From a virus (taxonomy: Duplodnaviria > Heunggongvirae > Uroviricota > Caudoviricetes): DNA of 26,651 nt. A program made the position numbers and the translations under genes. This document shows positions 8,717-26,651 of the stretch, one piece after another. A model generated the notes under the pieces. That model was not told the DNA's origin. It worked only from the letters and a program-made list of their open reading frames with translations, and made no database searches. Position 1 is the first letter of the stretch. Each line of letters starts with the position of its first letter. The stretch is taken from the IMG/VR virus record IMGVR_UViG_2609459847_000005, one strand, 5' to 3'.

Positions 8717-8732
8717 TGGGTTTTATGCTCCA

Positions 8733-9566: not shown

Positions 9567-9644
9567 GAGCCGTGCTCCGTTAGAAAAAACTTACTGGAGC
9601 CTTATGGTTGCGGTGATGGGGGCAGTGAAACAATGCGCGGTATT

Positions 9645-9662
9645 TGTACCGACAACCACACA
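9645..9662. promoter_or_regulatory. TGT-N12-ACA dyad in the O/P divergent late-promoter region
   Basis: TGTaccgacaaccacACA at 9645..9662, about 85 bp upstream of the O start, spacing compatible with an Ogr/B-type activator site for P_O. Confidence 0.4.
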
Positions 9663-9708
9663 AACCGCAGGCGGGGAAAGCCTTCATTCAAGGCTGTAGG
9701 TTTGTGCC

Positions 9709-11475: not shown

Positions 11476-12509
11476 TGGGAAAGAGTAAGAAGAACCGCGC
11501 TGCGGCGACGAAACAGATCCAGCTTAAAAGTCAAACTACAGCCGAAGCATTCAGCTTCGGCGATCCCGTTCCTGTTCTGGACCGCCGAGAACTGCTGGAT
11601 TATGTGGAATGCGTACAGATGGACCGCTGGTATGAGCCGCCCGTCAGCTTTGACGGACTGGCGCGCACCTTCCGCGCTGCCGTGCATCATAGTTCCCCGA
11701 TTGCAGTAAAGTGCAACATTCTGACCAGCACCTACATCCCTCACCCGCTGCTCAGCCAGCAGGCTTTTTCGCGTTTTGTGCAGGACTATCTGGTTTTTGG
11801 TAACGCCTACCTGGAGAAACGCACGAACCGCTTCGGTGAAGTTATCGCCCTTGAGCCTGCACTGGCAAAATACACCCGACGCGGGTTAGACCTGGATACC
11901 TACTGGTTTGTGCAATACGGTATGACAACCCAGCCGTATCAGTTCACGAAAGGCAGCATTTTTCATCTGATGGAACCGGATATTAATCAGGAGATCTACG
12001 GCCTGCCCGGTTATCTTTCTGCCATTCCGTCAGCCCTGCTCAACGAGTCCGCCACGCTGTTCCGTCGCAAGTATTACATTAACGGCAGTCATGCGGGCTT
12101 TATCATGTACATGACCGATGCCGCGCAAAACCAGGAGGATGTGAACAACCTCCGCAATGCGATGAAAAGCGCCAAAGGTCCAGGCAACTTCCGCAACCTG
12201 TTTATGTACTCGCCTAACGGCAAAAAAGACGGGCTTCAGATCATCCCATTGTCAGAAGTCGCGGCGAAGGATGAGTTTTTGAATATCAAAAATGTCAGCC
12301 GCGACGACATGATGGCTGCGCACCGCGTGCCGCCGCAAATGATGGGGATTATGCCTAATAATGTTGGAGGGTTTGGGGATGTGGAGAAGGCTAGTCGCGT
12401 ATTTGTACGTAATGAATTAACGCCCTTGCAAAAAAGGCTACAAGAGCTGAACGACTGGCTGGGCGAAGAAGTGATTAAATTTACGCCCTATATTCTTTCA
12501 GAAGAATAA
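11475..12509 (+). CDS. Q: Portal protein (P2 gpQ-like)
   Basis: ORF 11472..12509; first track codon is TTG, second is ATG at 11475, overlapping the P stop (TGATG); 344 aa, matching P2 Q. Confidence 0.9.
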   Translation: MGKSKKNRAAATKQIQLKSQTTAEAFSFGDPVPVLDRRELLDYVECVQMDRWYEPPVSFDGLARTFRAAVHHSSPIAVKCNILTSTYIPHPLLSQQAFSRFVQDYLVFGNAYLEKRTNRFGEVIALEPALAKYTRRGLDLDTYWFVQYGMTTQPYQFTKGSIFHLMEPDINQEIYGLPGYLSAIPSALLNESATLFRRKYYINGSHAGFIMYMTDAAQNQEDVNNLRNAMKSAKGPGNFRNLFMYSPNGKKDGLQIIPLSEVAAKDEFLNIKNVSRDDMMAAHRVPPQMMGIMPNNVGGFGDVEKASRVFVRNELTPLQKRLQELNDWLGEEVIKFTPYILSEE

Positions 12510-12517
12510 TTCCGAAC

Positions 12518-13216
12518 TTATTTGTTTCTTCTTTGTTCACGCCTTGTCTTGGCTTCGATAAGGCGTTGAGGTTCAGTGTAAAGCCGTTCTAAAAAAAGAT
12601 AGGTAAAATCTTCAAGATCCTCAGCAGCAGCTTTATCCAAAATACCTTCATGCGCTCCATCATTTCCGTCATCTTTAACGCATTCAGCTAGTTCCCTTAA
12701 AGCTTCAGGCAGTAGATGATTATCAAATAACCACTCCATTCTTAACCCTAGGCTTCTCCTTATTTTTTGCGCAGGCCCTTGCTCCCCATCAGGAAGAAGT
12801 CCTTTTGTGGCATAATCAAGGCAAAGCCTAAACATGGTTGCTGCTGCATTATAACAACCTATAGCCAAACATTTCGCCCCTTCCTCATATGCACTATTGA
12901 TATGCTCAGGTAAGAACTCTGGTGGCTCCTCTACTGCTAAGTCTGCCGGTGATATAGGCCTAACAACCTCTGCAACTTCCTTTAAGCCGAATATTCCACT
13001 TTCCCAATTATAGCCATCTAAAGTTTTATTTTTCGTTAAAGGTCTGCAAAGAAACATTGTCGTTTTATGACACTCTCGGCAAACACAATAGACCTCGTAC
13101 TCGTATGTTTTACCCCCGCCCAATGCATTGTAAACCCTAGTGCAATTCAGCCCATTAACATCAAACGCTATTTTTTGTGATCCACATCGTGGACAGTCAT
13201 CCACTAACATAACCAT
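12518..13216 (-). CDS. Hypothetical protein (232 aa): N-terminal zinc ribbon plus C-terminal alpha-helical domain (HEPN/DUF4145-like?)
   Basis: Strong GGGAGGAG Shine-Dalgarno before ATG 13216. N-terminus has CPRCGS...C..CVCRECH (Cys4-type ribbon); C-terminal region has GNDGAH (an NxxxH motif) in a predicted helical domain. AT-rich; sits between the Q 3' end and the putative cos site. Confidence 0.75.
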   Translation of the reverse strand: MVMLVDDCPRCGSQKIAFDVNGLNCTRVYNALGGGKTYEYEVYCVCRECHKTTMFLCRPLTKNKTLDGYNWESGIFGLKEVAEVVRPISPADLAVEEPPEFLPEHINSAYEEGAKCLAIGCYNAAATMFRLCLDYATKGLLPDGEQGPAQKIRRSLGLRMEWLFDNHLLPEALRELAECVKDDGNDGAHEGILDKAAAEDLEDFTYLFLERLYTEPQRLIEAKTRREQRRNK

Positions 13217-13317
13217 GTCAATTACTCCTCCCTATGAAAAAAATGAGTTGAAAAATTGAATATTCACGACTTAAAAAGCTAGCCTATTTAACACCATAAT
13301 TTCATTAATTCAACCAT

Positions 13318-13345
13318 GAGCGCGCGCTCGTATCCCCGCCACGCC
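13318..13345. other. Candidate cos site with adjacent 12-bp perfect palindrome
   Basis: Reverse complement of 13327..13345 is GGCGTGGCGGGGATACGAG; the first 13 nt match the 186-type cohesive end as I recall it (GGCGTGGCGGGGAAAGCAT). Palindrome GAGCGCGCGCTC at 13318..13329. Location between Q and the old/tin-equivalent region fits P2-family genome organisation. Confidence 0.5.
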
Positions 13346-13390
13346 TGCCCGCTTTATGTAGTGGTTTTCATGCGCCTGCATGACATAAGC

Positions 13391-13414
13391 AAAAGCCCGC
13401 CATTCCTAGCGGGC
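13391..13414 (-). terminator. Rho-independent terminator candidate for the minus-strand cargo operon
   Basis: Minus strand reads GCCCGC-taggaatg-GCGGGC followed by TTTT; about 90 nt downstream of the 203-aa gene stop. Confidence 0.55.
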
Positions 13415-13505
13415 CTCAGCTAAAACGATCCTCAAACGATCATGCGGATTCATGCGGCATAGACATGCACAATCGCCAAAGCGGGCATCGAGACTTTTTG
13501 GAAAA

Positions 13506-14117
13506 CTACGTAACCACAGTTAATGTGTGCATCCTGTCTCGAATTGCATCACACGTCTCATCAAAAAGCTTGGTGATGGTTGTACGGTTCAACTCTGCCT
13601 CTTTCCAATAATTTTGCCAGTCAAATTCTGGATCGCCATGCTGAAACGATATTGACTCTGAAAGGCATTCCTTCCGGAAACGGTCCAAGATTATATAAAC
13701 CTCTGGTGAGATGAACGGTTTGTTAGACTCAACACTTGTAACAAAAGTATTAAATGCATCGAAAAAAACTTTCAACCTTCTAAATTTTCTCTCTTCAAAT
13801 GGTTCGTTGGGGTCAAAATGATCCAGCGCAGGCCTCAGCTTAAGCACGCTTTCTCTGGTTTCAAACATCGAATTCCAAATGAGACTATATGCTGATAACT
13901 CCTTATCAAAATACGCTTTCGTTACATAAACAGAATTGTCTAACTTAGCCTTTATTCTTTCATTAGTTGCACTCAGTTGTGATTGAAATTCAGCAATATC
14001 TTTGTTTAGCCGCGACTTATATCTTTCTAAATAAACTTTCCCGATCCAAACAAATATGCCAGATGCAACAAAAGACACCCCACCCAACGAAGCCAGAATT
14101 TTAAAGACTAAATCCAT
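13506..14117 (-). CDS. Hypothetical membrane-anchored protein (203 aa)
   Basis: ATG 14117 preceded by AGGTGGGGG; N-terminal TM helix (ILASLGGVSFVASGIFVWIGKVY) followed by a charged, helix-rich soluble domain; AT-rich; no recognisable domain. Confidence 0.75.
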   Translation of the reverse strand: MDLVFKILASLGGVSFVASGIFVWIGKVYLERYKSRLNKDIAEFQSQLSATNERIKAKLDNSVYVTKAYFDKELSAYSLIWNSMFETRESVLKLRPALDHFDPNEPFEERKFRRLKVFFDAFNTFVTSVESNKPFISPEVYIILDRFRKECLSESISFQHGDPEFDWQNYWKEAELNRTTITKLFDETCDAIRDRMHTLTVVT

Positions 14118-14165
14118 TGCGCCCCCACCTGCAAAAATAGTATTCCATTATAAGCTAATACATTT

Positions 14166-14426
14166 TTAATCAAACAGGGAATAATTCGCGTCAACCTCAT
14201 CACTTCTCTGCTCTACCCTGGTGACTTCCATCAAAAACTCCAGGCCGTCATATAGCGAAACGGGGAATTCCAGCTCAAGCCAGAAGCAGTCTTCATAGGT
14301 GCGGCCCAACCAAAAACCTCCGCCACACTCCTTTGGGCGTTGAAAGAAGACCCAGCCGCCAGGGGTAAACCGTTCCAGCACCTGGCCCCGATAAATAATC
14401 TGGTGATTACTGTCTTTTTTACCCAT
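14166..14426 (-). CDS. Hypothetical small protein (86 aa)
   Basis: ORF 14166..14477 starts at TTG; internal ATG at 14426 (MGKKDSNHQIIYRGQ...) preferred. Lies between the DinI-like gene and the TM protein gene. Coding status moderately supported. Confidence 0.5.
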   Translation of the reverse strand: MGKKDSNHQIIYRGQVLERFTPGGWVFFQRPKECGGGFWLGRTYEDCFWLELEFPVSLYDGLEFLMEVTRVEQRSDEVDANYSLFD

Positions 14427-14499
14427 GGCTAACGCCTCGCTACTCTCGTTGTTCAACCTTGCTGACGTCAGAATCAAGTTCTTACATCAGGAACGTTCC

Positions 14500-14733
14500 T
14501 TAGTGCAGCCAGCTGTCGTCTTCCCAAACCTGCTGCATAATTTCCATCACCCGCTTTTTGTCTTCATCAAGCTTTAAGCCACTCAGCTCAACGCCGTTTG
14601 CCGACCCTTTACGGATGCGGATAGCTGTCTTGGGATAGATGGGTTGCAGGTTGCGGTAAAGCTCGGACTCCAGAGCGTCCAGGGTAGACTGGCTAATCTT
14701 CTGCTCTTTATCGATCATTATTTCAATGCGCAT
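14500..14733 (-). CDS. DinI-family protein (Tum-like antirepressor C-terminal module)
   Basis: Start moved to internal ATG 14733 with GAGGTG Shine-Dalgarno; MRIEIMIDKEQKISQSTLDALESELYRNLQPIYPKTAIRIRKGSANGVELSGLKLDEDKKRVMEIMQQVWEDDSW resembles E. coli DinI (MRIEVTIAK...ETWESADDWF). It is downstream of LexA boxes, as for the 186 tum gene. Confidence 0.8.
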   Translation of the reverse strand: MRIEIMIDKEQKISQSTLDALESELYRNLQPIYPKTAIRIRKGSANGVELSGLKLDEDKKRVMEIMQQVWEDDSWLH

Positions 14734-14743
14734 AAAAGTCACC

Positions 14744-14932
14744 TCAGCTGATGACATCCATTGAGCGGTTGTATTCGTGGGTTCTGATTTTTGCCATGAG
14801 TTCATCTGTCAGTTCAGAAACCCACTGCAGGGCCAGCCCCTTCTCTTCATCACTACACTCACTAGCCGCTACAAGCTTAAGAAAAAAATCAATGCGCTGG
14901 AGCTTCAAAGACTCCAAAAAATAGTCCTGCAT
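14744..14932 (-). CDS. Small protein (62 aa) upstream of the DinI-like gene; possible N-terminal part of a split tum-like module
   Basis: ATG 14932 with AGGAGGAA Shine-Dalgarno; first gene downstream of the LexA-box promoter; 11-nt gap to the DinI-like gene. Confidence 0.65.
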   Translation of the reverse strand: MQDYFLESLKLQRIDFFLKLVAASECSDEEKGLALQWVSELTDELMAKIRTHEYNRSMDVIS

Positions 14933-14959
14933 CTTTCCTCCTATGACACCAAAGCAACA

Positions 14960-14990
14960 CTGTATACATAACCACTGTTTATATTTACAG
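14960..14990 (-). promoter_or_regulatory. LexA operators (SOS boxes) overlapping the promoter of the tum-like operon
   Basis: CTGTTTATATTTACAG at 14975..14990 is a perfect CTGT-N8-ACAG box; the adjacent CTGTATACATAACCAC (14960..14975) is a weaker second box; both are just upstream of the 62-aa gene start. Confidence 0.75.
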
Positions 14991-15084
14991 TATATAATAA
15001 TCTTACTGATGTAAAACGTTTTTTTACGCTCATCAGCCTGATATGCCTGGTATTATTAAGAGCACGAATTGTTAACCTGCGTAA

Positions 15085-17499
15085 TTAATACAGGTTCCGC
15101 CATTTATCATCCTCCTGCAGACGCTGGTTCCGATAGAAGATACGCAGGCCTGCTCCTGACGGAATACTGCCGCCGCGAAGGAGTAAATCGACCTCTTTCT
15201 CGCTGCCATCAAATCCTCTGGACTTCAGTTCATAGACGAGCTGCTGTCGCTGATGATCTGTAATTCGCTGTTTGTAGTCTTTACGCCGTTTCGGTTTAAC
15301 CAGGCGTAACCTTGCTGCCAGTTCCCGGCGCTCTTTTTTGCTCATACTGTGCAGGTAATCGTGCAATTCCTTGTCATCCATGCGGGTGATTTCCGTTCTG
15401 GTATCCCCATCAGCTGATTTGTCTTTCCCTTGTTGGTTCAAATTTTCAGCAAGGGGACAGTTATTGCCACGAGTCCAAGGGGCGCAAGCGCCCTGGTCGG
15501 CTGCCGCCTCCTGAACGTCAACGGCTTTACGAACCATTTTCCACTTCACTGCATGAGTGCAGATCTTGCCCTCTGCAATGGGTGACCAGATGCCATAAAT
15601 ACGAATGCCGTGATCGCCATAGGCGGTCGGCTCTTCGTTGATTTCATAAGCGGTTCTGATGAGGTGATATTTACGGGGAACCAGTACGCCGCCCTGCTTC
15701 ATGATGTAGGTGGCAAAACAACCAGCATCAGCAGCAGCCAGAATGGCATCAAGACGCGGGTTATCCAGTACCGGCGCACCTACTTTTTTGTCACCCTGTT
15801 GCCTTGCCGCCTGACCAGCCAGCAAGCGAAGTTCACGGTAAGCCTGACGCCCCGGAATACCAAAGAAGCGGAATTGCTGAACACGATGCAGAGACGCCCA
15901 GGCATTCACGTATTCAGCGTTATCACGCAGAGATTTACCCGTTTCCTTGCTGATCTCGCCAGCCAGACCACGACCGTCAATGTTCTTACTGATATATTTC
16001 GCGATGTAGCTTGTCGGCGTTCCTTTGCGCGGGTTAATCAACTCAGACTTAAAGCGCGGCCCAGTGTTATTGCCCAGCTCCTCGCGGTCTTCACGGGTGG
16101 CAAACTTACGCAGTAATGCAGTGATGGCACGGCGGTCTTTTTTGCGCATGAAACACAACAGGTGCCAGTGAACGGGGCCGTCATGATGCGGCTCAGCCCC
16201 CCGCACGCCATACCAGCGCAACCCGGCTTTGTGCATCGCCTTACGAAATGCAGCAAACATGCCGACCAGATAATCGCTGCTTTGTCTTACCGTCGCGTTT
16301 GTCCAGGTCGGGTTTGGTCTGCCGTTATTTAGCGTGGAATGGAAACGCGACGGACAGGTGATAGTGTAGAAAACGGCGCAGTCACCGCGCATTTCCGCGA
16401 TAAGCTCCAGACCTTTAACACAGGCCATCATCTCATTGCGGCGATGCGCAGGGTTGCTGCTGCTGGCGTTTACCACATCCTCCATGTCCAGCGTGTCGCC
16501 GTCTTCGTTCACCAGTTCATGAGAACGGAAAAACTCCAGCGACTTACGGCGCTGCTCACGTTTATGCATCACGGCTTCATAGCTGACATAAGGAGATGCT
16601 TTTTTGCTGACCAGGCAAACAGCGCGCAACTGCTCTTCCCGCCATTCGCAACGCATCTTCCATAATTTCCGATACCACCAGTCGCCGCACAACATACGCG
16701 CCAGCGAACCCGGAATGAGTTCATAGGGCACGGGTTTACGGCGGTTTCTTTTCCGACGGAGTTGCTCAAACGCAGGTGGGATGACATCCAGACGCAGGGT
16801 TTCCGCCGCCACCTTTTCCCATGTCTTGCGGATTTCTTCTGGCTTAACGTCATCGGTGGCATACAAATCGCCACAAGCTGCATCAAGGCACATGCTCATA
16901 TGCGCAGCTACCAGGGTGGACAGGCGTTTCACATGATCCTGACTCATTTCAGGCAGGATCAGCAGGCCGTCCAGCCCTTCATGGCTTGCCATAAAGCGAA
17001 AAGAAGTGGATAGCTGACTCTCGCGTACATGCTCCAGTCGTTCCAGACATGGCTTAATCGTCTCACGCAAATAGCGGGAATAAGCCTTTGGCCTGCCCAG
17101 GCTGCTGAAGTATTCAATACGTTGCATCAGCGGCTTGCTGATATGGGAAGGCTGGGCGTTGACGTCCGCCAGAATGACCATATCCGGATTAAAACGCTGC
17201 TGCTCATGCGCCAGCTTTGCCCGGCTAATGAGCTTATCCTGCTCCATTTCGCGCTGGACAGGATCACGGGATTCATTAAAGAAATAACGCTCCCAGACCT
17301 GATCACTCAGTGCCTCGCGGCGCAGTTGTTCCTGCTCGTTATCGGCAGCGTACAGAGTGATCAGGTTTGAAAGCGCAGAAACCGGCGCAACTTCTGCCGG
17401 GTCCAGATAAGGGTTAATAGCCTTTTTCGGGCTGTCCCATGAGAATGCTGCGGCGGCCTCGTTAAAGCCGCTGCAGTTGTTCATATCAGCATGGCTCAT
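15085..17499 (-). CDS. A: Replication initiation endonuclease (P2 gpA-like rolling-circle Rep)
   Basis: 804-aa ORF; HUH-type motif (PVHWHLLCF) and tyrosine-containing [12 protein letters not shown]; ATG overlaps the dam stop; P2 A is about 761 aa. Confidence 0.9.
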
Positions 17500-18353
17500 G
17501 CACGCACTCCGTACACGGCAGAACTATCCACGCCACGCGAAGGATCAAATCCCACCCAGCAGCGCGCCCCAGAAACAGCGATGATTTCTGTTGCAGATTT
17601 ACTCTCACCAGCTGCTACGCCGATGCTGCGTTTTGCCTTGATGTAGTGGTGAGTAAAATTGCGATACAGCGAACGGATCAGGGATGTGTCACTGTTAGAA
17701 ACAATGACCGGATGTCCTTCTGATGACCGATGTTCAAGAACGGATGCCAGGTGATACTGGTCATCTTCAGTGAAGCCGTCAGTGTGATAACCGGAAAACG
17801 TGCCGTCATACGGCGGATCGCAATACACCACATCCCCCGCCTTCAACATCGCCAGCGTTTCATCAAAGCTGGCGCAGATAAACGTTGCCCGCTGGGCTTT
17901 CTCTGCAAATGCGCGAATTTCTTTTTCAGGGAAATACGGATTTTTATAATTACCGTAGGGAATGTTGAAATACCCGCTCTTGTTATAGCGACATAACCCA
18001 CGGTAACCATGACGATTGAGATACAGAAAATATACCGCTTTCATGAAATCAGTAATTTCAGTGGAGTAATTAAACTCCTGCCTTATGTTGTAATAAGCCA
18101 CCTCCCTGTTTGCTTCCTCAAATAAAGCTCTGGCACGAGATATAAATGCCTCACAATCAGCAGCAACCTTTTTATAGAGGTTGATTAAATCAGGATTAAT
18201 ATCCGCAACAAGATAGCTGGGGTAATCCGTCTCCATCATCACAGCACAGGAACCCGCGAAAGGTTCAACCAGTCGCGGGCCAGCAGGAAGGTGTTTTTTC
18301 AGTTCGGACATAATGGCGGTTTTATTTCCCGCCCATTTCAGGATGGTGCTCAT
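17496..18353 (-). CDS. dam: DNA adenine methyltransferase (Dam-like, N6-MTase)
   Basis: Start moved to internal ATG 18353 ([38 protein letters not shown]...), resembling the E. coli Dam N-terminus (...FLKWAGGK...VEPFVGAGSV); DPPY catalytic motif present ([10 protein letters not shown]). Confidence 0.85.
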
Positions 18354-18577
18354 ACAGCACCTCCGTTGTAATGTTTGCCTTTCAGCTCTGCAATTTCCTG
18401 GCAGGTAATGCAAAGCTGCACACCCGGAATGGCACGGCGGCGTGCTGGCGGAATTGGCGCTTCACACTCAATGCAAAGCACGCGAGACACGCCCGGTGTT
18501 TTGGCACGGGCAGCACGGATATGGCGCTGGCGTTCTTCTTCAACGCGCTGCTGTACGAGATCCATTGCATCAGCCAT
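18350..18577 (-). CDS. TraR/DksA-family C4 zinc-finger protein
   Basis: 75-aa ORF with CIECEAPIP...CITCQ (CxxC-N17-CxxC); AGGAGA Shine-Dalgarno; common in P2/186 early operons. Confidence 0.75.
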   Translation of the reverse strand: MADAMDLVQQRVEEERQRHIRAARAKTPGVSRVLCIECEAPIPPARRRAIPGVQLCITCQEIAELKGKHYNGGAV

Positions 18578-18810
18578 TAGTGGATCTCCTGCGCTTCGTT
18601 CTGGATTGCTTCAGCAGTCACACGCAGCAGTTCTGCCGCTTCCACGTGGTTTAGCTGACGGGATGAGATATGACACGCCAGGCTATCAAGGCGAGCGGCC
18701 ATTGCTTCAGCCCTTGCCCGGCGTTCTTCCAGACGAGCCTCTGTCAGTAAAATATTAAGCCCTGCATCATCCGGTCCGGTTTTAGTCGTGAGGATTTCAA
18801 TATTACGCAT
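18577..18810 (-). CDS. Hypothetical early-operon protein (77 aa)
   Basis: ORF 18577..18816; ATG at 18810 preceded by GGAGA; position within the early (replication) operon. Confidence 0.55.
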   Translation of the reverse strand: MRNIEILTTKTGPDDAGLNILLTEARLEERRARAEAMAARLDSLACHISSRQLNHVEAAELLRVTAEAIQNEAQEIH

Positions 18811-18877
18811 AATCAATTCTCCTGAATTTAGATAAAGGGATGCTCGGCGGGTTTACGCCATTAATTTCATTAGTTGG

Positions 18878-19219
18878 TTAATTCGGCATGGTTAGCCGTC
18901 TGGGAAATAAGCTCACCACTGCACGAAAATGATTCATTGCTTTAATCAACTCCCGCTTTTCGTCAGTGGTCAGCTCATTGATGCTGATGCTATGACGTTC
19001 AGCCGGAATTTTTGCCATAAAGAATATGGCTGCCAGTGCTCGTTTATTTTGTTCGTTATTGATATCCCGTGGATCACGCATATCTTTAATAAACCGCTCA
19101 AGCTCTGACTCAATATTCAGGCCAAAAACTTTCGCCCTTAATTCCGCTATGTGATTAAGTCCATTCAGGCGTTCACCGGGGCTTAATGGAACAGTCGCCG
19201 CAGCGCCTTCAATAGCCAT
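18878..19219 (-). CDS. Hypothetical early-operon protein (113 aa)
   Basis: ATG 19219 with GGGGGAA Shine-Dalgarno; same strand and operon as cII/A. Confidence 0.6.
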   Translation of the reverse strand: MAIEGAAATVPLSPGERLNGLNHIAELRAKVFGLNIESELERFIKDMRDPRDINNEQNKRALAAIFFMAKIPAERHSISINELTTDEKRELIKAMNHFRAVVSLFPRRLTMPN

Positions 19220-19383
19220 TTGTTCCCCCGTTTTTTCGTAGATAGTTCTGCCAGCAATTCATCTTGTGAACGGCACGGATGCCAGCGTTTACCATCCTCA
19301 CCCATGATCCAGCCGTGACCGTAGTGCATTGCCGGACTTTGTTTTACCAGCAGCGATGCAAATGATGGTTCTTTCGTCAGCAT
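19183..19383 (-). CDS. Hypothetical small early protein (66 aa)
   Basis: ORF 19183..19413 begins with GTG; internal ATG 19383 preceded by GAGGTG; immediately downstream of cII (position of 186 fil). Confidence 0.5.
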   Translation of the reverse strand: MLTKEPSFASLLVKQSPAMHYGHGWIMGEDGKRWHPCRSQDELLAELSTKKRGNKWLLKALRRLFH

Positions 19384-19390
19384 AAGCACC

Positions 19391-19900
19391 TCACAGCAAA
19401 CCGAATGAAGCACCGAGACCGGTTACAGTATCAACTGCACTTGCCATCGCAGGATTAACCTGTAAACGGGCCTGCAATGAAACAGCAGCTAACGCCATCA
19501 GTCGTGTAACAGAGTTAATGCTGCTGATAGCATCACGACGACCTGCACTGGTTTTTACATCGCCAGATACCGCACCTGCAGCAACACGCCCGATCTCTGC
19601 GGTTGCACTCATGACGTAATGTGGCAGTTTCTCTTTTGCCACCTCATTAATCGGTACACATGGCAGGCAGTGAATCTGTGCCAGAAAACCGTCTACCAGC
19701 GTTGAATCTTCCGTCAGATCGGTAAGTAGCCAGATATCTGGCGCATTGAGCTGATGCGGTTGATCTGGGTTGAGTTTGTTTCGCAGAGTCTGGACATTCA
19801 TTCCTGAACGTTCTGCCAGCTTCGCCATATTGTGACGAAGTGCAAAAGCTCTACAGGCTTCATCAAAATGCGGGTGTTTGGAAATCTTATAATCAAACAT
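19391..19900 (-). CDS. cII: CII-like transcriptional activator (186 CII family)
   Basis: 169-aa ORF, identical in length to 186 CII; second gene of the lytic operon after the apl-like gene; HTH-like N-terminal region (MAKLAERSGMNVQTLRNKL). Confidence 0.75.
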   Translation of the reverse strand: MFDYKISKHPHFDEACRAFALRHNMAKLAERSGMNVQTLRNKLNPDQPHQLNAPDIWLLTDLTEDSTLVDGFLAQIHCLPCVPINEVAKEKLPHYVMSATAEIGRVAAGAVSGDVKTSAGRRDAISSINSVTRLMALAAVSLQARLQVNPAMASAVDTVTGLGASFGLL

Positions 19901-19932
19901 GCTACCCCCTTAGAAAGTTCTCATAATTGAAC

Positions 19933-20175
19933 TTACTTACCAACAATGACGCGGAAGTTGGAATGACCGAGGGATTCACGGACCTGATCGGTTTTGTACA
20001 TTAAATAACGCAGGCTTACGCGGCCTTTGTTTTTTTCTTTCTTGACCATGTATTTAGCAAGCTGACCATGATGAATTTTTTGATACACAGAGCCGCGGGA
20101 GATACCTTCCCATTCCGCGAACTCTGCAGGCGTAGCCATCTCTTTTGGTACACGAATTGAAATATCAGTGCTCAT
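19933..20175 (-). CDS. apl: Apl/Cox-like excisionase-regulator (small HTH protein)
   Basis: 80-aa ORF, first gene of the lytic operon, divergent from cI; GGGAGA Shine-Dalgarno; HTH-like segment EFAEWEGISRGSVYQKIHHGQL. Confidence 0.7.
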   Translation of the reverse strand: MSTDISIRVPKEMATPAEFAEWEGISRGSVYQKIHHGQLAKYMVKKEKNKGRVSLRYLMYKTDQVRESLGHSNFRVIVGK

Positions 20176-20294
20176 AGTGCAGTATCTCCCGATTAAGGTT
20201 TGGTTTACGTCGTTTTATCTCGTTTTACTTGATTCAATATTTGATACATCGAGATACTACGATCCAATATTTGATACGTCAACAGGATTAAAAA
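20176..20294. promoter_or_regulatory. Lysis-lysogeny switch region (pR/pL and operators) between the apl-like gene and cI
   Basis: Direct repeats CAATATTTGATAC at 20235..20247 and 20265..20277 (30-bp phasing), and CGTTTTA at 20211..20217 and 20221..20227; divergent genes on either side. Confidence 0.55.
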
Positions 20295-20927
20295 ATGATA
20301 CAGGTAAAGGTTGGAGAGAATACAGGGGGAAGAGAGGCTATCCATAGACTAATGGCAGCCTATGATTTCAAGTCCAGACAGCAACTTTGCGATCACTTAG
20401 GCGCATCAAAAAGCACCATGGCAAACAGATACTTAAGAGATAGTTTTCCTGCAGAGTGGGTGATTCAGTGCGCCTTGGAAACAGGAGTTTCTTTACTGTG
20501 GCTAACCACCGGACAGGGGGAGCCAGGTCCAAACATTGAACCTAAAAAAAATATCAATTCCGTGAACTCCAGCAAGGTTGTACCTCTTTCTGAACTAGTA
20601 TCTCCTGAAATTGACAAGGCGACTCTCAACGGTGGTTTATTGGTCGATGCTGGAAAAGCAATCATTGATAGCAGCATACTCCCCTCAGACTCAAGCAACC
20701 TACTGCTGGTGACTACTTCTGGTGATTCTTATTTAATAGATCGCAACCAAACACCACCAGTAAATGGTATGTGGTTAGTCGATATTGACGGGATAAAAAG
20801 CATTGTTAAATTGACTCGACTTCCGGGAAACAAATTAGTAGTGCATCAGGATGATTCATCGTTTGAGTGTGGCCTAGATGACATTGAGGTAGTAGGCCGC
20901 GCACTGAAAATCATTAAGAGCCTTTGA
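20295..20927 (+). CDS. cI: CI-like immunity repressor (186 CI family)
   Basis: 210-aa ORF; N-terminal HTH region (ANRYLRDSFPAEWVIQCALETGVSLLWLTTGQG) resembles the 186 CI N-terminal domain as recalled; AGGA Shine-Dalgarno; directly precedes int. Confidence 0.8.
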   Translation: MIQVKVGENTGGREAIHRLMAAYDFKSRQQLCDHLGASKSTMANRYLRDSFPAEWVIQCALETGVSLLWLTTGQGEPGPNIEPKKNINSVNSSKVVPLSELVSPEIDKATLNGGLLVDAGKAIIDSSILPSDSSNLLLVTTSGDSYLIDRNQTPPVNGMWLVDIDGIKSIVKLTRLPGNKLVVHQDDSSFECGLDDIEVVGRALKIIKSL

Positions 20928-20928
20928 T

Positions 20929-21945
20929 ATGACCATCAGAAAACAGCCGAACGGAAAATGGTTGTGTGAGTGCTATCCCAATGGACGCAATGGTAAGCGC
21001 GTGCGTAAGCAATTTGCTACGAAAGGCGAAGCCATTGCTTTTGAAAGCTTCACAATGGAAGAAGTGAATAAAAAACCGTGGTTGGGTGAAAAGGATGATC
21101 GGCGACGCCTATCAGAATTAATTGAGCTTTGGTATTCCCTGTATGGTCAGACACTCGCAGACCCCAAGCGCCTCATGGCGAAACTTAGAATTATCTGTAA
21201 TGGTCTAGGCGACCCCATCGCCTCAGAACTGACAGCCGGTGACTTTACGAAATACCGCGAAGCACGGTTAAAAGGTGACGTTCGTAACGAAGACGGCACA
21301 CTAATGTCGCCAGTAAAACCACGCACGGTGAATCTTGAGCAACGTAACCTATCATCGGTTTTCGGCACATTGAAAAAACTAGGCCACTGGTCAGCACCAA
21401 ATCCTCTCGCCGGGCTGCCAACATTTAAAATCGCTGAGGGGGAACTGGCGTTCCTGACCTCGGAAGAAATTAAACGTCTGCTAGATGCCTGCGCTGATTC
21501 TCAAAACCCCAGTCTGCTTTTGATTGCAAAAATATGCCTGGCCACCGGCGCACGCTGGAGTGAAGCTGAAAACCTGCAGGGCCATCAGTTATCTAAATAC
21601 CGCATCACTTATACCAAGACGAAGGGTAAGAAAAACCGCACCGTGCCGATATCTCAAGATCTGTATGACGAACTCCCCAAGAACAGAGGGAAGCTATTCA
21701 CCCCGTGCAGAAAAGCCTTTGAACGAGCAGTAAAGCGAGCTGGCATCGAGCTGCCAGAGGGCCAATGCACTCACGTGCTACGTCATACATTCGCCAGCCA
21801 TTTTATGATGAATGGCGGAAACATACTGGTGCTGCGCGATATTCTGGGCCATGCCGATATAAAAATGACGATGATTTACGCCCACTTTTCGCCCGATCAC
21901 CTTGAAGATGCGGTAACTAAAAACCCTTTATGCAACTTAAGATAG
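20929..21945 (+). CDS. int: Tyrosine integrase (P2/186 Int family)
   Basis: 338-aa ORF; C-terminal catalytic region with R...HVLRHTFASHFMMNGG...LGHADIKMTMIYAH (RHR-Y tyrosine-recombinase signature); immediately follows cI. Confidence 0.9.
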   Translation: MTIRKQPNGKWLCECYPNGRNGKRVRKQFATKGEAIAFESFTMEEVNKKPWLGEKDDRRRLSELIELWYSLYGQTLADPKRLMAKLRIICNGLGDPIASELTAGDFTKYREARLKGDVRNEDGTLMSPVKPRTVNLEQRNLSSVFGTLKKLGHWSAPNPLAGLPTFKIAEGELAFLTSEEIKRLLDACADSQNPSLLLIAKICLATGARWSEAENLQGHQLSKYRITYTKTKGKKNRTVPISQDLYDELPKNRGKLFTPCRKAFERAVKRAGIELPEGQCTHVLRHTFASHFMMNGGNILVLRDILGHADIKMTMIYAHFSPDHLEDAVTKNPLCNLR

Positions 21946-22260
21946 AGTAACTTATGAAAACAAACTCAAACTATTTACAAATATAATATTCAGCAGGTTA
22001 TCCATTCTCATTTAACTCTTCAGACTGAGTTTAGGTTTTATTTATAGAATAAGATAATTTTTACATCACAAAAAAACCTATAAGCCCTCATCTTTGTTGT
22101 ATAAAAACATCAAAGATGCCACATTCAAAAATAGTAGAAAAGCATAGCATTGCAACATTAAAAAGAAACCAATAAAAAACAGTCATTAGAAAATGAAAAA
22201 AACAAAAACATTTTTTATCGAAGCTTCAGTCTGACTACTAGTTTGACTCTGCAATTAACT

Positions 22261-22294
22261 TTCAAGATGATCAATATTTATTGATCATCTTGAA
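22261..22294. repeat. 34-bp near-perfect inverted repeat with two GATC sites
   Basis: TTCAAGATGATCAATA-tt-TATTGATCATCTTGAA; lies about 30 nt beyond the 3' end of the deaminase gene in the AT-rich spacer between int and the deaminase. Confidence 0.6.
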
Positions 22295-22325
22295 GCTTAC
22301 CTCAGGAAGGATGAGTATAATATTT

Positions 22326-24059
22326 CTACTCAAGGAGATATTCTAACTCATCTTTTATCGGGATAATTTGCTCATAAAGTCGGTGATATGACTTCCCAAT
22401 TGCGCCTCTAAATTGTATTAACTTTGGTGGCTTACTACCTATATTAATAATATGGTCTTGAGCTATACCTGGGTAGGGATCAATAAATACAATTTCAGAT
22501 ATACCTAACTGATAAGCTTTTTTCGCACACAACTCACAGGGACTGGCAGTTGTATACAACTTCCCCCCCAGAACGCCAATACCACCATATTTTGCAAGTT
22601 GTAAAAATGCGTTTTCCTCAGCATGTAATGCACGTGTATGAACTTGATTACCTTTTTTCTCTTTATCAAGATCATTATGTATATCTTTAAAACAATAAGA
22701 TAAGTTCCTGCCTCTATAAATATCACCAGTTTTATCTATCGCCCTAAAATTTAAGAGTTTCTCATTAGCTTTAATTCTGAAAGAACTATTATTTCTCTCA
22801 TAATGACTGTACGTTTTTTCATCAAAATCGTTCATTAGGCCATCTAGAGATCTCATAGAGCAAGGAATCTGACCGTTGGCAACATCATTCCAACCAACTG
22901 ATTTTATTGAATTATCACCATCAGTTACTACAGCTCCCACCTGTCTAGATATACAGCCAGAGTTTAATTTTACCGTATACGCAACTTGCATAACCCTTTC
23001 CATTGCAGTAGGTGTTATCAGACCAGGATGCTTCATCAGTGCGATGTACCACGCTAATTGTGCTTTTAAAATATTGTCATTATCAAATTCATTTTTTGGG
23101 TTAAAAATGTGTATATCTGATAGTTCAATACATTTAGTTACATTTGGATTGGTGAGATGTTTGTAAGAGTTATCACCTTTACCTGACTCTACAGAATCTA
23201 TTTCCTCTATCTGCTTTTCTGAAAACTTATGTAGTTTCCGCAAATAGTTTGTTCGATGTTCATCTGGGGCATTTATTGACATTAAATGAAATGCAGAATA
23301 TCTATCCTTAAAAAATTTTGCCTCATATGGATTTCTAATAGCATCTATGACAATTAATGCGTTATCTCTTTTGCTTTTTCTTATTAATTTAATAACCCTA
23401 TTAATAGTTTCCGGCAAATGAAAAACAGATTTAGGCATAAACTCTTTATCTTCAAAATCGACTTCAATACGCCCACGACGTCTAATTGACTTACCTGCTA
23501 ACTGATAGGCTGAAACATATAAATTTGAGTTTATCTCATTTAGTTCAGCTTTGAATTCTTTAGTAAATTTTCTAACTAACTTCAAAATTGATATAAATTT
23601 ATTAATCGTTTTTTCATCAAACTTCAATTCACTATTATGATCAAGCAAATTCTCAATTACATTTTTAAATCTTGTCAAAATGAGATTATCTGAGAATACA
23701 CCAAAAGTTAATACAATATCTAAATGCTCTTTACTGATAAATTTATTAGATGATAGAATGAATTCAGAAGCTTCCTCAACTGTTAACATCAGAAGATACG
23801 CTGAGATTAGGTCACTCACCTTAATTGAGTAAAAATTTTCCCAGTGATTTTCTGCGAATTTTTTAACTATATTATAACGATGGACATCCAATCCCTTGTA
23901 AAACCCCTGTAATTTACTTACATCAGGGAAGACTGTTTTTTCGTTTTCAAGAATATTAGCTGTTGTTGTGCAACCAGAACCAGTTCGACCTGTCAAACCG
24001 ACTAAAATAAACTGCCCATTTTCAAGGAAAAGCTCACTAACGAATTTTTTTTCTTTCAT
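22326..24059 (-). CDS. P-loop NTPase / dCMP-dCTP deaminase fusion (AvcD/DCD-like nucleotide-depletion defence protein)
   Basis: 577 aa from ATG 24059 (track ORF starts at GTG 24062). N-terminal P-loop region with non-canonical Walker A (GLTGRTGSGCTT, no Lys) and Walker-B-like LIVID. C-terminal cytidine/dCMP deaminase signatures (RQVGAVV...GWN; HAEENA; PCELC zinc-binding motifs). Strongly AT-rich relative to the phage backbone. Confidence 0.8.
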   Translation of the reverse strand: MKEKKFVSELFLENGQFILVGLTGRTGSGCTTTANILENEKTVFPDVSKLQGFYKGLDVHRYNIVKKFAENHWENFYSIKVSDLISAYLLMLTVEEASEFILSSNKFISKEHLDIVLTFGVFSDNLILTRFKNVIENLLDHNSELKFDEKTINKFISILKLVRKFTKEFKAELNEINSNLYVSAYQLAGKSIRRRGRIEVDFEDKEFMPKSVFHLPETINRVIKLIRKSKRDNALIVIDAIRNPYEAKFFKDRYSAFHLMSINAPDEHRTNYLRKLHKFSEKQIEEIDSVESGKGDNSYKHLTNPNVTKCIELSDIHIFNPKNEFDNDNILKAQLAWYIALMKHPGLITPTAMERVMQVAYTVKLNSGCISRQVGAVVTDGDNSIKSVGWNDVANGQIPCSMRSLDGLMNDFDEKTYSHYERNNSSFRIKANEKLLNFRAIDKTGDIYRGRNLSYCFKDIHNDLDKEKKGNQVHTRALHAEENAFLQLAKYGGIGVLGGKLYTTASPCELCAKKAYQLGISEIVFIDPYPGIAQDHIINIGSKPPKLIQFRGAIGKSYHRLYEQIIPIKDELEYLLE

Positions 24060-24254
24060 CACGTCCCACTTATGAATGCAAGAACAATTAGCATATTAAT
24101 TATAATTTATTAACTAATTTTATTCTAGATGCTTGATGTAATGGCGGCACTTTGGCGGCAGAGCATTAAAAACGCGTAAGACGAGCAAATACAAAATAAC
24201 ACTAACACATTGTTTTCAAACATAATCTACTGTTTTTACTATAATAAAAATGGT

Positions 24255-24299
24255 ATGTAGGAATTTCGGACGCGGGTTCAACTCCCGCCAGCTCCACCA
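24255..24299 (+). other. ssrA: 3'-terminal fragment of tmRNA gene ssrA (attachment-site core copy)
   Basis: ATGTAGGAATTTCGGACGCGGGTTCAACTCCCGCCAGCTCCACCA matches the 3' acceptor/T-arm end of E. coli ssrA as recalled; upstream sequence is AT-rich and not ssrA-like, so only the core is present. Confidence 0.7.
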
Positions 24300-24334
24300 A
24301 TTTTTGATATATTGAAGTTCAGTGAAGTCTATCA

Positions 24335-24367
24335 AGCCCGCATGGAACCAGCCTTGCGGGCTTTTTT
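24335..24367 (+). terminator. Rho-independent terminator downstream of the ssrA 3' fragment
   Basis: AGCCCGCA-tggaaccagcct-TGCGGGCT followed by TTTTTT. Confidence 0.6.
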
Positions 24368-24465
24368 ACGTCTATAGTAGTCTACCGAGAATTGCTAGAA
24401 TCTACTCGTTATGGCACCCTTTTTGGGACCCAACACAAAGGGTCCAAAACATGAGGGTCCCAAAC

Positions 24466-25695
24466 ATGGCAAAAATCGCTAAGAAGCTCACTGACACTGA
24501 AATCAAAAGCACCAAACCTGCCGAGAAAGAGGTTAACCTTTTTGACGGCGATGGTTTGCTCCTGCGAATCGCCCCCTTAGCGAAGGGAGGAAAGAAAAAT
24601 TGGTATTTCAGATATGCAGTGCCTGTGACCAAAAAGCGAACTAAGGTGAGCTTAGGAACCTATCCTCACCTTACACTTGCGAAGGCACGAGCTTTACGTG
24701 ATGAGTACTTGTCGTTGCTTGCAAATGGTATAGACCCACAAGTTCATAACACCCACAAAGCCAATGCCCTTAAGGATGCAACGGAACATACATTTCAAGC
24801 AGTAGCCAAGAAGTGGCTTGATGAGAAAGTCAAAACGTCAGGCATCTCCCAGGATCATGCTAACGACATCTGGCGAAGCCTAGAGAGAAATATCTTTCCA
24901 ACGTTGGGTGATACCCCCATTAAGGAGATTCGCCCTAAAATGCTTAAACAGCATTTAGACCCCATAGAAAAACGAGGTGTCCTTGAAACACTTCGCCGCG
25001 TCATATCCCGCCTGAATGAAATTTTCCGCTATGCAGCAACAGAAGAACTCATAGAATTCAATCCGGCTGACAACCTGGGGCAACGGTTCAGCAAGCCAAA
25101 AAAACAGAATATGCCAGCATTACCCCCTTCCGAACTCCCCCGCTTCCTGGTTGCTCTAAACAATGCTTCTATCCGTTTAGAAACAAGGCTACTGATTGAG
25201 TGGCAACTTCTCACATGGGTTCGCCCTGGTGAAGCTGTTCGCACAAGATGGTCAGATATTGATATAGAAACCAGCATGTGGAACATCCCGGCGGAGTTTA
25301 TGAAAATGAAGAAGCCTCACAAAGTTCCACTGAGCAAAGAATCTTTGCGAGTCTTGGATTCAATGAAAGCCATCAGCGGGCATAGAGAGTGGGTTTTTCC
25401 CAGTATCAAAGCTCCACTCAATCACATGCATGAACAAACAGCTAATGCGGCTATAATCCGTATGGGCTTCGGAGGTGAGCTTGTAGCTCATGGTATGCGA
25501 TCAATCGCTAGAACGGCGGCTGAGGAGTGTGGCAAGTTTAGAACTGATGTCTTAGAAGCCGCCCTTGCCCACTCGAAAAAAGATGAAATAATTGCAGCCT
25601 ACAATCGTGCAGAGTATCTCACAGAACGTGTGGTTCTCATGCAATGGTGGAGTGACTATGTTTCGTCTCAAAAATACAAAGTTATTGCCGCATAA
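24466..25695 (+). CDS. intA: Tyrosine integrase, CP4-57 IntA / P4-family (ssrA-targeting type)
   Basis: ORF 24322..25695; start moved to internal ATG 24466 (MAKIAKKLTDTEIKSTKPAEKEVNLFDGDGLLLRI...) because the upstream part spans the terminator hairpin; N-terminal pattern typical of P4-family integrases (DUF4102-like); adjacency to the ssrA 3' end as in CP4-57. Confidence 0.8.
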   Translation: MAKIAKKLTDTEIKSTKPAEKEVNLFDGDGLLLRIAPLAKGGKKNWYFRYAVPVTKKRTKVSLGTYPHLTLAKARALRDEYLSLLANGIDPQVHNTHKANALKDATEHTFQAVAKKWLDEKVKTSGISQDHANDIWRSLERNIFPTLGDTPIKEIRPKMLKQHLDPIEKRGVLETLRRVISRLNEIFRYAATEELIEFNPADNLGQRFSKPKKQNMPALPPSELPRFLVALNNASIRLETRLLIEWQLLTWVRPGEAVRTRWSDIDIETSMWNIPAEFMKMKKPHKVPLSKESLRVLDSMKAISGHREWVFPSIKAPLNHMHEQTANAAIIRMGFGGELVAHGMRSIARTAAEECGKFRTDVLEAALAHSKKDEIIAAYNRAEYLTERVVLMQWWSDYVSSQKYKVIAA

Positions 25696-25977: not shown

Positions 25978-26069
25978 ATGGCTAGCGGAAATGAAAAAAA
26001 TCATAGAGTTAGGGTCGCACAGTACTTGAGGATGTCTACCGACCATCAGCAATATTCTTTACATAATCA
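25978..26069 (+). pseudogene. 5' fragment of a serine-recombinase-like gene, interrupted by IS1
   Basis: ATG 25978 encodes MASGNEKNHRVRVAQYLRMSTDHQQYSLHNQ, containing the Y-x-R-x-S-T-x-x-Q catalytic-serine motif; the reading frame runs directly into the IS1 terminal inverted repeat at 26070. Confidence 0.4.
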
Positions 26070-26651
26070 GGTAATGACTCCAACTTATTGATAGTGTTTT
26101 ATGTTCAGATAATGCCCGATGACTTTGTCATGCAGCTCCACCGATTTTGAGAACGACAGCGACTTCCGTCCCAGCCGTGCCAGGTGCTGCCTCAGATTCA
26201 GGTTATGCCGCTCAATTCGCTGAGTGTAACGCTTGCTGATTACGTGCAGCTTTCCCTTCAGGCGGGATTCATACAGCGGCCAGCCATCCGTCATCCATAT
26301 CACCACGTCAAAGGGTGACAGCAGGCTCATAAGACGCCCCAGCGTCGCCATAGTGCGTTCACCGAATACGTGCGCAACAACCGTCTTCCGGAGCCTGTCA
26401 TACGCGTAAAACAGCCAGCGCTGGCGCGATTTAGCCCCGACGTATCCCCACTGTTCGTCCATTTCCGCGCAGACGATGACGTCACTGCCCGGCTGTATGC
26501 GCGAGGTTACCGACTGCGGCCTGAGTTTTTTAAATGGCGGAAAATCGTGTTGAGGCCAACGCCCATAATGCGGGCGGTTGCCCGGCATCCAACGCCATTC
26601 ATGGCCATATCAATGATTTTCTGGTGCGTACCGGGTTGAGAAGCGGTGTAA
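26070..26651 (-). mobile_element. IS1 insertion sequence (partial; continues beyond window end)
   Basis: Sequence from 26070 (GGTAATGACTCCAACTTATTGATAGTGTTTTATGTTCAGATAATGCCCGATGAC...) matches the IS1 right inverted repeat and body as recalled; contains insB. Confidence 0.9.
26085..26588 (-). CDS. insB: IS1 transposase InsB (C-terminal part of InsAB')
   Basis: 167-aa [53 protein letters not shown]... recognised as IS1 InsB. Confidence 0.9.

What the first reader, a model, noticed from the sequence alone, without database searches (positions are those of the whole stretch)
24255..25695. Tandem integrative elements at ssrA: prophage right end abuts an ssrA 3' core copy followed by an IntA-type integrase island
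Only the last 45 nt of tmRNA are present, preceded by AT-rich non-ssrA DNA and followed by a terminator and an IntA-like integrase. That is what an attR/attL junction looks like when two elements have integrated one after the other at the ssrA 3' end: the P2/186-like prophage on the left and a CP4-57-like island on the right. Such tandem arrays are hotspots for accessory gene turnover.
Basis: partly seen in the sequence, partly recalled or inferred. Interest (0 to 1): 0.5.

Follow-up and report, generated by a model that had tools for sequence, protein, structure and literature searches.

The report
Prophage and island stacked at ssrA
This is the junction where a Fels-2-like P2-family prophage sits next to an older, decayed integrase island, both inserted into the 3' end of the E. 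coli tmRNA gene; the arrangement is real, but it is a well-documented kind and seen in other finished genomes.

Summary
Window 24255-24299 is an exact copy of the last 45 nt of E. coli ssrA and nothing more of the gene. The DNA to its left is phage, and the DNA to its right is an island arm with a terminator and a P4/IntA-family integrase.

The 45-mer is the attR core of a Fels-2/SopEPhi-type prophage of the P2 family with a 186-type switch. Its integrase is 93% identical to Fels-2 Int. A free phage, Cartapus, carries the same P arm, 45-nt core and P' arm as attP.

In NCTC9038 and Z226-5 the intact ssrA lies at the other end of the prophage. In AH21 the right-hand DNA follows an intact ssrA directly, at 100% identity and with no prophage.

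Three corrections:
- The island resembles CP4-57 only in its integrase family (49% identity to IntA) and its site. Its cargo is different.
- In the window the island is a stump of about 1.8 kb, consisting of int plus a 31-codon serine-recombinase fragment cut by IS1.
- The two elements use nested cores, 45 nt for the phage and about 15 nt for P4-type integrases.

Tandem arrays at the tmRNA gene have been described since 2003. Novelty: already known. Interest: low.

The parts
1..24062 (.). Right-hand ~24 kb of a Fels-2-like (Peduoviridae, P2-family with a 186-type switch) prophage: tail/baseplate, lysis, head, terminase and portal genes, an accessory hotspot, replication endonuclease, dam, fil, cII, apl-like gene, cI (20295-20927 +), int (20929-21945 +), and the cargo gene for an anti-phage dCTP deaminase (22326-24062 -).
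   Evidence: 99.9% identity to the E47 prophage and 100% to the NCTC9038 prophage, with their annotations. Pfam: CI repressor; Int_N + Phage_integrase. Int is 93% identical to Fels-2 and Cartapus Int. dCTP deaminase: NF041025 at 425.5 bits against a cutoff of 400, and PADLOC dCTPase at E = 1e-145.
24063..24254 (+). Phage P arm of attR. It is AT-rich (30% GC) and holds two direct TGGCGGCA repeats 11 bp apart (24142-24149 and 24153-24160), which are candidate arm-type binding sites for the phage Int.
   Evidence: It aligns with the P arm of free phage Cartapus and with the NCTC9038 and E47 attR, but not with ssrA. The repeat pair is also present in the Cartapus and Fels-2 P arms, with a second pair in the P' arm. 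The binding function is inferred.
24255..24299 (+). Displaced 3' fragment of ssrA (the last 45 nt, ending CCA). This is the core of the prophage attR. Its last ~15 nt (24285-24299) are also the attL core used by P4/IntA-type integrases.
   Evidence: 45/45 identical to ssrA nt 319-363. Identical to the attP core of Cartapus and to attL and attR of NCTC9038 and Z226-5. The 15-nt core comes from the third ssrA-end copy in E47 and from K-12 psaA.
24300..24465 (+). Island attL arm. It carries the island-borne terminator that serves ssrA when no prophage is present (hairpin 24335-24363, T-run to 24369) and GGG(A/T)CC(C)AA repeats at 24423-24463 that run into the int start codon.
   Evidence: 100% identical to the DNA directly downstream of intact ssrA in AH21. 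Terminator. The same arm lies ~25 nt after intact tmRNA genes in 9 of the 12 loci found by an exact 29-nt pattern taken from this arm's allele in other genomes; one of those nine genes is cut by a contig end. Repeats.
24466..25695 (+). Intact P4/IntA-family tyrosine integrase of the island (409 aa).
   Evidence: Pfam Arm-DNA-bind_3, Phage_int_M and Phage_integrase. NF007246 at 445 bits against 434. 49% identical to K-12 IntA and 50% to the P4-like satellite Int at ssrA in E47. No detectable similarity to the prophage Int.
25978..26070 (+). First 31 codons of a large serine recombinase gene, cut off by IS1.
   Evidence: Annotated as a partial 'recombinase family protein' in AH21. The full 518-aa gene (Resolvase + Recombinase domains) is present in 01G17CRGN001.
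26071..26651 (-). IS1 (partial; it runs off the end of the window), inserted into the recombinase gene.
   Evidence: The IS1 end starts at 26071. Annotated as an IS1B-family transposase in AH21, with 100% identity to the window's end.

Best explanation
Window 24255-24299 is the attR core of a Fels-2-like temperate phage that integrated by tyrosine-recombinase site-specific recombination into the 3' end of ssrA. At that time the locus already carried an IntA-type island directly downstream of ssrA (inferred). The phage attP contains a copy of the last 45 nt of ssrA. Recombination between attP and ssrA rebuilds a complete ssrA at attL, which now ends in phage DNA that supplies a new terminator. 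That attL lies outside the window, an estimated 9-11 kb to the left. The original 45-nt 3' end is pushed about 35 kb downstream, where it remains joined to what used to follow ssrA: the island's arm with its terminator, then the island integrase. The island uses a shorter core of about 15 nt nested inside the 45-mer, so its attL survives intact inside the displaced fragment. The island itself is a relic. Only int and 31 codons of a serine recombinase remain before an IS1. In the 100%-identical AH21 context the IS1 is followed by a deletion that removed the rest of the island and its distal att. Shown: the identities, the junction structure, and the independent existence of each element. Inferred: the order of arrival, the position of attL in this genome, and whether the prophage can still excise.
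For: Only the 45-nt 3' end of ssrA is present. The four-way junction logic holds. Window and NCTC9038 attR = P arm + core + island arm. AH21 = ssrA + core + island arm. NCTC9038 attL = ssrA + core + P' arm. Free phage Cartapus = P arm + core + P' arm. Z226-5 has the full array smpB-ssrA-ogr...int-dCTP deaminase-45 nt-island int-recombinase'::IS1, with exact cores 35,432 bp apart. The phage Int is 93% identical to Fels-2 Int, and the literature places Fels-2 and SopEPhi in ssrA (PMC3448106). The same prophage (99.9%) abuts a different right-hand neighbour in E47, a P4-like satellite followed by a 15-nt ssrA-end copy and a CP4-57-type int. The island arm plus int occurs in 1184 of 5426 complete E. 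coli genomes, whereas the phage-arm/core/island-arm junction occurs in only 60. That difference fits a resident island and a sporadic phage. The two integrases are unrelated at BLASTP level.
Against: attL, and therefore the intact ssrA of this very genome, is not in the window. No finished genome in the collection matches the whole window at 100%, so the full array is inferred from relatives (NCTC9038, E47, AH21, Z226-5). The order of arrival is not proven, because precise excision of the prophage from a window-type strain would also produce an AH21-type locus. No distal att copy for the island was found in any relative, so the island cannot be delimited as a complete element.
Confidence: 0.93

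Rival explanations
1. Reverse order of arrival. The phage integrated first, and the IntA-type island then integrated into the 15-nt core retained in the phage's attR fragment rather than into the intact ssrA.
For: The displaced 45-mer still holds the whole T-arm and the 15-nt P4-type core, so it is a plausible secondary attB. The literature notes that a second element can enter either regenerated core (PMC7192596). AH21-type loci could be cured derivatives.
Against: The island arm is about 20 times more frequent than the tandem junction (1184 against 60 genomes). The island is decayed by IS1 and a deletion, whereas the prophage looks recent: it is 99.9-100% identical in strains that have different right-hand neighbours. 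The identical IS1 junction occurs in prophage-free strains.
Confidence: 0.1
2. A single composite mobile element. The IntA-type integrase belongs to the prophage, and the 45-mer is an internal sequence rather than a junction.
For: The two are adjacent in 60 genomes.
Against: Each occurs without the other. The free phages Cartapus and Fels-2 end at the core with a P' arm and carry no IntA-type int. AH21 has the island and no phage. E47 has the phage with a different neighbour.
Confidence: 0.01
3. Misreading. An intact ssrA lies immediately upstream and the 45-mer is simply its end.
For: None.
Against: The upstream DNA does not align with ssrA. ARAGORN and Rfam find no tmRNA. The upstream gene is a phage-borne dCTP deaminase.
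Confidence: 0.005

Closest known systems
Tandem arrays of integrative elements at the tmRNA gene (Williams 2003, J Bacteriol 185:1059, as cited in PMC7192596 and PMC4383910; Islander/TIGER)
   Same: An intact target gene, then element 1, then a displaced 3' fragment, then element 2 with its own integrase. Fragment and gene have the same orientation. The element-borne sequence restores the gene and supplies its terminator.
   Different: Nothing in kind. Here the second element has lost its distal fragment, so Islander's strict rule (each member has its own fragment and integrase) would not call it.
Fels-2 / SopEPhi / Cartapus (Peduoviridae) ssrA-integrating phages
   Same: Int is 93% identical. 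The 45-nt core and both arms match. The order cI-int-(cargo)-attP-orf-ogr is the same.
   Different: The cargo between int and att is a dCTP deaminase here, a RES-domain protein in Cartapus, and a 343-aa hypothetical protein in Z1323PEC0012.
CP4-57 cryptic prophage of E. coli K-12 (intA at ssrA)
   Same: The same insertion point, a homologous terminator arm, and a P4-family integrase with the same domain architecture.
   Different: Only 49% integrase identity. There is no alpA, yfjI or rnlAB-type cargo. Intact relatives carry a serine recombinase, two ParB-like genes and a type I R-M system. The repeat motifs upstream of int differ.
P2 helper / P4 satellite pairs at one locus (E47)
   Same: A P2-family prophage next to an element with a P4-family integrase at the same att gene.
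   Different: The window's island has none of psu, delta, sid or alpha, so it is not a P4-like satellite.

Membership tests
Tandem integrative-element array at a tDNA/tmRNA gene | A displaced fragment identical to the 3' end of the target gene, with foreign DNA on its 5' side | tested here: met
   45/45 nt identical to the ssrA 3' end, with a phage P arm upstream.
Tandem integrative-element array at a tDNA/tmRNA gene | An intact target gene in the same orientation at the far end of the first element, in this genome | not testable with these tools
   attL lies outside the window. The feature is met in close relatives: NCTC9038 (100% identical attR) and Z226-5.
Tandem integrative-element array at a tDNA/tmRNA gene | Each element has its own integrase gene | tested here: met
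   Phage Int at 20929-21945 and island Int at 24466-25695. Both are full length and mutually unrelated.
Tandem integrative-element array at a tDNA/tmRNA gene | Each element has its own target-gene fragment (the second element's distal att) | tested here: not met
   No further exact copy of the core's last 14 nt exists in the window or downstream in AH21, NCTC9038 or 01G17CRGN001. NCTC9038 keeps only a degenerate psaA-like 14-mer upstream of ypjA. In AH21 the IS1 is followed by a deletion into ypjA.
Tandem integrative-element array at a tDNA/tmRNA gene | The elements occur independently of each other | tested here: met
   Island without phage in AH21. Phage without island in Cartapus and Fels-2. 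Phage with another neighbour in E47.
Fels-2-like ssrA-integrating P2-family phage | An integrase of the Fels-2 specificity group and an attP core equal to the ssrA 3' end | tested here: met
   93% identity to Fels-2 and Cartapus Int. The Cartapus attP core is identical over 45 nt with matching arms.
Fels-2-like ssrA-integrating P2-family phage | P2-family structural module and a 186-type CI/Apl/CII switch | tested here: met
   Annotations of 99.9-100% identical DNA, and Pfam Phage_CI_repr + Phage_CI_C.
CP4-57 (K-12) | An orthologous IntA | tested here: not met
   49% identity over 401 aa. It belongs to the same NCBIfam integrase family NF007246 but is a distinct lineage.
CP4-57 (K-12) | CP4-57 gene content (alpA, yfjI, rnlAB and others) | tested here: not met
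   The next gene is a serine recombinase. Intact relatives carry two ParB-like genes and a type I R-M system.
P4-like satellite | psu, delta, sid and alpha core genes | tested here: not met
   None is present between int and IS1. Compare the true P4-like element in E47.

The most novel reading that the evidence does not exclude
The junction may be expressed. A transcript could start in the phage P arm, where a perfect TATAAT lies at 24240-24245 just before the core, run through the displaced 45-nt tmRNA end, and stop at the island-borne terminator. That would give a chimeric small RNA of about 115 nt. A precedent may exist: the last ~78 positions of the Rfam model for IsrM, a Salmonella virulence sRNA, align to window 24285-24367. 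This suggests that IsrM ends in a degenerate ssrA-end fragment plus this same island terminator, meaning it would have arisen at such a tandem junction.
Probability: 0.05. Interest if true: 0.5.

Novelty: already known. Interest (0 to 1): 0.12.

Why it matters
The finding matters mainly for annotation. It marks the exact right boundary of a probably inducible, defence-carrying prophage and the left boundary of a relic island. It also explains why a tmRNA 'gene' may be mis-called here: PGAP annotates a 177-nt ssrA at the equivalent attR in one genome. Finally, it illustrates nested att cores (45 nt and 15 nt) that let two integrase families share one gene without destroying each other's site. 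None of this changes what is understood about integration at ssrA.

Tried and rejected
- ARAGORN and Rfam at gathering thresholds were run to test for an overlooked intact tmRNA. None was found.
- Exact and fuzzy searches for further core copies, meaning the island's distal att, were run in the window and in AH21, NCTC9038, 01G17CRGN001 and K-12. They returned only degenerate 14-mers (psaA and a second psaA-like site). Similar two-edit hits occur by chance in the window, so I did not rely on them.
- The sigma-70 promoter scan of 23900-24600 found nothing, so I claim no expression of the fragment.
- PADLOC on the island's recombinase and ParB genes gave no defence assignment beyond a weak methyltransferase hit.
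- Williams 2003 (PMC142792) and Pelludat 2003 (PMC181011) are not held in the library. I cite them only through papers that reference them.
- I looked for a finished genome identical to the whole window and found none. The best matches are mosaics: NCTC9038 and E47 for the prophage, AH21 for the island plus IS1.
- The composite-element and misread-ssrA explanations are rejected, as set out under the rival explanations.

Full report
**Observation**

A BLASTN of the complete 363-nt E. coli ssrA (taken from AH21) against the window aligns only ssrA nt 319-363. That stretch matches window 24255-24299 at 45/45 identical. About 4e-23 exact hits of that length are expected by chance.

ARAGORN finds no tRNA or tmRNA in the window. 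Rfam at gathering thresholds finds nothing. With permissive thresholds the tmRNA model gives a 5'-truncated match of 43.7 bits, below the 47-bit gathering score, and it is confident only over roughly the last 45 positions.

The 192 nt on the left (24063-24254) are 30% GC and do not align with ssrA. On the right there is a hairpin GCCCGCA-N12-TGCGGGC followed by TTTTTT at 24335-24369. A 409-aa integrase follows at 24466-25695, with Arm-DNA-bind_3, Phage_int_M and Phage_integrase domains.

**The left element**

DNA 99.9-100% identical to window 283-24374 and 1899-25000 occurs in E. coli E47 and NCTC9038 respectively. There it is annotated as a P2-family prophage with:
- tail, baseplate and lysis genes;
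- P2-family capsid, GPO scaffold, terminase and portal;
- replication endonuclease, Dam, Fil, CII and an Apl-like Rha-family regulator;
- CI and integrase.

The window's CI and Int have the expected Pfam domains. The Int is 93% identical to Fels-2 Int and to Int of the free phage Cartapus. Fels-2 and SopEPhi are reported to integrate into ssrA (PMC3448106).

Between int and the ssrA fragment lies a 578-aa ORF (577 aa as annotated) of 33% GC. It is an anti-phage dCTP deaminase, scoring 425.5 bits on NF041025 against a cutoff of 400, and E = 1e-145 on PADLOC dCTPase.

**The junction logic**

An alignment of six junctions and a direct comparison of flanks give the classic four-way pattern:

| Locus | Left of core | Core | Right of core |
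|---|---|---|---|
| Window, NCTC9038 attR | phage P arm | 45 nt | island arm |
| AH21 | ssrA body | 45 nt | island arm |
| NCTC9038 attL | ssrA body | 45 nt | phage P' arm, with its own hairpin AAGGGG...CCCCTTTTT |
| Free phage Cartapus | P arm | 45 nt | P' arm |

The 45-mer is therefore the core of this phage's att site, and the window holds attR.

In NCTC9038 the two exact cores are 22,613 bp apart, because that prophage carries deletions. In Z226-5 they are 35,432 bp apart and enclose a full-length prophage between smpB-ssrA and the island integrase. By analogy, the attL and intact ssrA of the window's own genome should lie roughly 9-11 kb left of position 1. This is an inference.

**The right element**

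Window 24255-26651 is 100% identical to AH21 and Z142-1, where it begins inside an intact ssrA with no prophage. The integrase passes NCBIfam NF007246 (445 bits against 434). It is 49% identical to K-12 IntA and 50% identical to the integrase of a P4-like satellite at ssrA in E47. It shows no BLASTP similarity to the phage Int.

The next gene, at 25978-26070, is the first 31 codons of a large serine recombinase. An IS1 that starts at 26071 cuts it off. In 01G17CRGN001 the same island continues with the full 518-aa recombinase, two ParB-like genes and a type I R-M system.

In AH21 the IS1 is followed by a truncated ypjA, so the rest of the island and its distal end are gone. No distal att copy could be found in any relative.

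The island is therefore 'IntA-type' by integrase family and site, but it is not CP4-57. In the window it is a stump of about 1.8 kb.

**Nested cores**

In E47 the same prophage is followed by the 45-mer and then a P4-like satellite (int, SIR2, psu, delta, sid, alpha). Next comes a third ssrA-end copy that is identical over exactly 15 nt, and then a CP4-57-type arm and integrase. The K-12 CP4-57 attR (psaA) is a degenerate 14-mer of the same end.

P4-family integrases therefore use about 15 nt at the 3' end, and the Fels-2-type Int uses 45 nt. These two sizes correspond to the T-stem and anticodon-equivalent sub-sites tabulated by Islander (PMC4383910). The displaced 45-mer thus still contains the island's attL core.

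A scan of one genome per species with an exact 29-nt pattern from this arm's allele in other genomes returned 12 loci. In 9 of them the arm lies about 25 nt after an intact tmRNA gene, one of which is cut by a contig end. In the other three it follows displaced fragments: 30 nt in Photorhabdus and about 13 nt, degenerate, in Salmonella diarizonae and Dryocola.

**Frequency and order of arrival**

- The island arm plus int is present in 1184 of 5426 complete E. coli genomes.
- The phage-arm/core/island-arm junction is present in 60.
- The P arm that carries the dCTP deaminase is present in 20.

The island is decayed, whereas the prophage is nearly identical in strains with different right-hand neighbours. 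The most economical history is a resident island with later phage integration into ssrA upstream of it. This is an inference, since precise prophage excision would regenerate an AH21-type locus.

**Comparison with what is known**

Tandem arrays arise because integration regenerates the core at both ends of an element. They have been described specifically for the tmRNA gene (Williams 2003, cited in PMC7192596 and PMC4383910). Islander reports 125 arrays of two or more elements and notes that the tmRNA gene is the most enriched target.

A minor defence hotspot between int and att in P2-like phages has also been reported (PMC13586616). The finding is a correct reading of an ordinary, already known arrangement.

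**Rival explanations**

- A composite single element is excluded, because each element occurs independently.
- A misread intact ssrA is excluded.
- The reverse order of arrival remains possible but is less parsimonious.

**Side observation**

The last ~78 positions of the Rfam IsrM model (a Salmonella island-encoded sRNA; PMC3384567) align to 24285-24367. That stretch covers the end of the ssrA fragment plus the island terminator. A Salmonella diarizonae locus has the matching degenerate fragment in front of the same arm.

Only this 3' module is shared, and the score (about 42 bits) is far below the family's gathering score of 376, so there is no IsrM gene here. The match does suggest that such junctions can become sRNA genes.

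Noticed in passing
window 22326-24062 (-): An anti-phage dCTP deaminase (NF041025 equivalog; PADLOC dCTPase; 33% GC) is carried as phage cargo between int and attR. Related phages hold different genes in the same slot: a RES-domain protein in Cartapus and a 343-aa hypothetical protein in Z1323PEC0012. This matches the minor 'int-att' defence hotspot of P2-like phages reported in PMC13586616.
   Followed up: partly
window 12518-14477 (-): A low-GC (41-43%) accessory block sits between portal gene Q and the replication region. It holds a DUF4145 protein with a weak PD-T7-4 hit (E = 1e-6) and two hypothetical proteins without family hits. This is the classical P2 Q-A defence hotspot. Z226-5 carries partly different genes there (it keeps a DUF4145 protein).
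   Followed up: partly
window 3554-4123 (+): A 189-aa ORF with 39% GC and no Pfam-independent family hit (PADLOC and NCBIfam both negative) is inserted between baseplate gene V and tail-completion gene S. It is probably another cargo slot.
   Followed up: no
window 24142-24160; L006 4739-4757 and 4945-4992; L002 11342-11389; L007 2703-2721: Pairs of direct TGGCGGCA repeats 11 bp apart occur on both the P and P' arms of the Fels-2-type attP, with an extra inverted copy in P'. They are conserved in Cartapus, Fels-2, NCTC9038 and the window, and are candidate Int arm-type sites.
   Followed up: partly
window 24423-24463: Three GGG(A/T)CC(C)AA repeats, with an inverted overlap, lie immediately upstream of and into the island int start codon. 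Each IntA-type island compared (K-12 CP4-57, the E47 P4-like satellite, the third E47 island) has a different 8-9-mer repeat set at the same position. This suggests integrase-specific arm or operator sites.
   Followed up: partly
window 24285-24367: The 3' ~78 positions of the Rfam IsrM model (a Salmonella virulence sRNA) align here, at about 42 bits against a gathering score of 376. The aligned stretch is a degenerate ssrA-end fragment plus the island-borne terminator. It suggests that IsrM originates at a tandem junction of ssrA islands in Salmonella.
   Followed up: partly
L008 3989-4165 (Z1323PEC0012): PGAP annotates a 177-nt 'ssrA tmRNA' at the prophage attR. It overlaps the end of a phage cargo gene and is an annotation artefact caused by the displaced fragment.
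   Followed up: no
L004 (E47) 12000-48091: This is a triple array. A P2-family prophage, whose left end and attL are lost to IS26, is followed by the 45-nt core, a P4-like satellite carrying a SIR2 gene, a 15-nt core, and a CP4-57-type integrase cut by IS1. The potential helper phage and satellite are direct neighbours.
   Followed up: partly
L003 (K-12) 28969-28982; L001 10566-10579; L002 41897-41910: A second psaA-like degenerate ssrA-end motif (CTGCCAGCCCACCA) lies beyond ypjA/pinH. It shares the same missing T as psaA and could be a fossil of an older array member. Comparable two-edit hits occur by chance in the window, so its significance is unproven.
   Followed up: no
L019 (Photorhabdus heterorhabditis), ~30 nt upstream of the arm match: A 30-nt displaced ssrA fragment that starts at the T-arm is preceded by AT-rich foreign DNA and followed by the same island arm. 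This is a third core size at the same gene.
   Followed up: no
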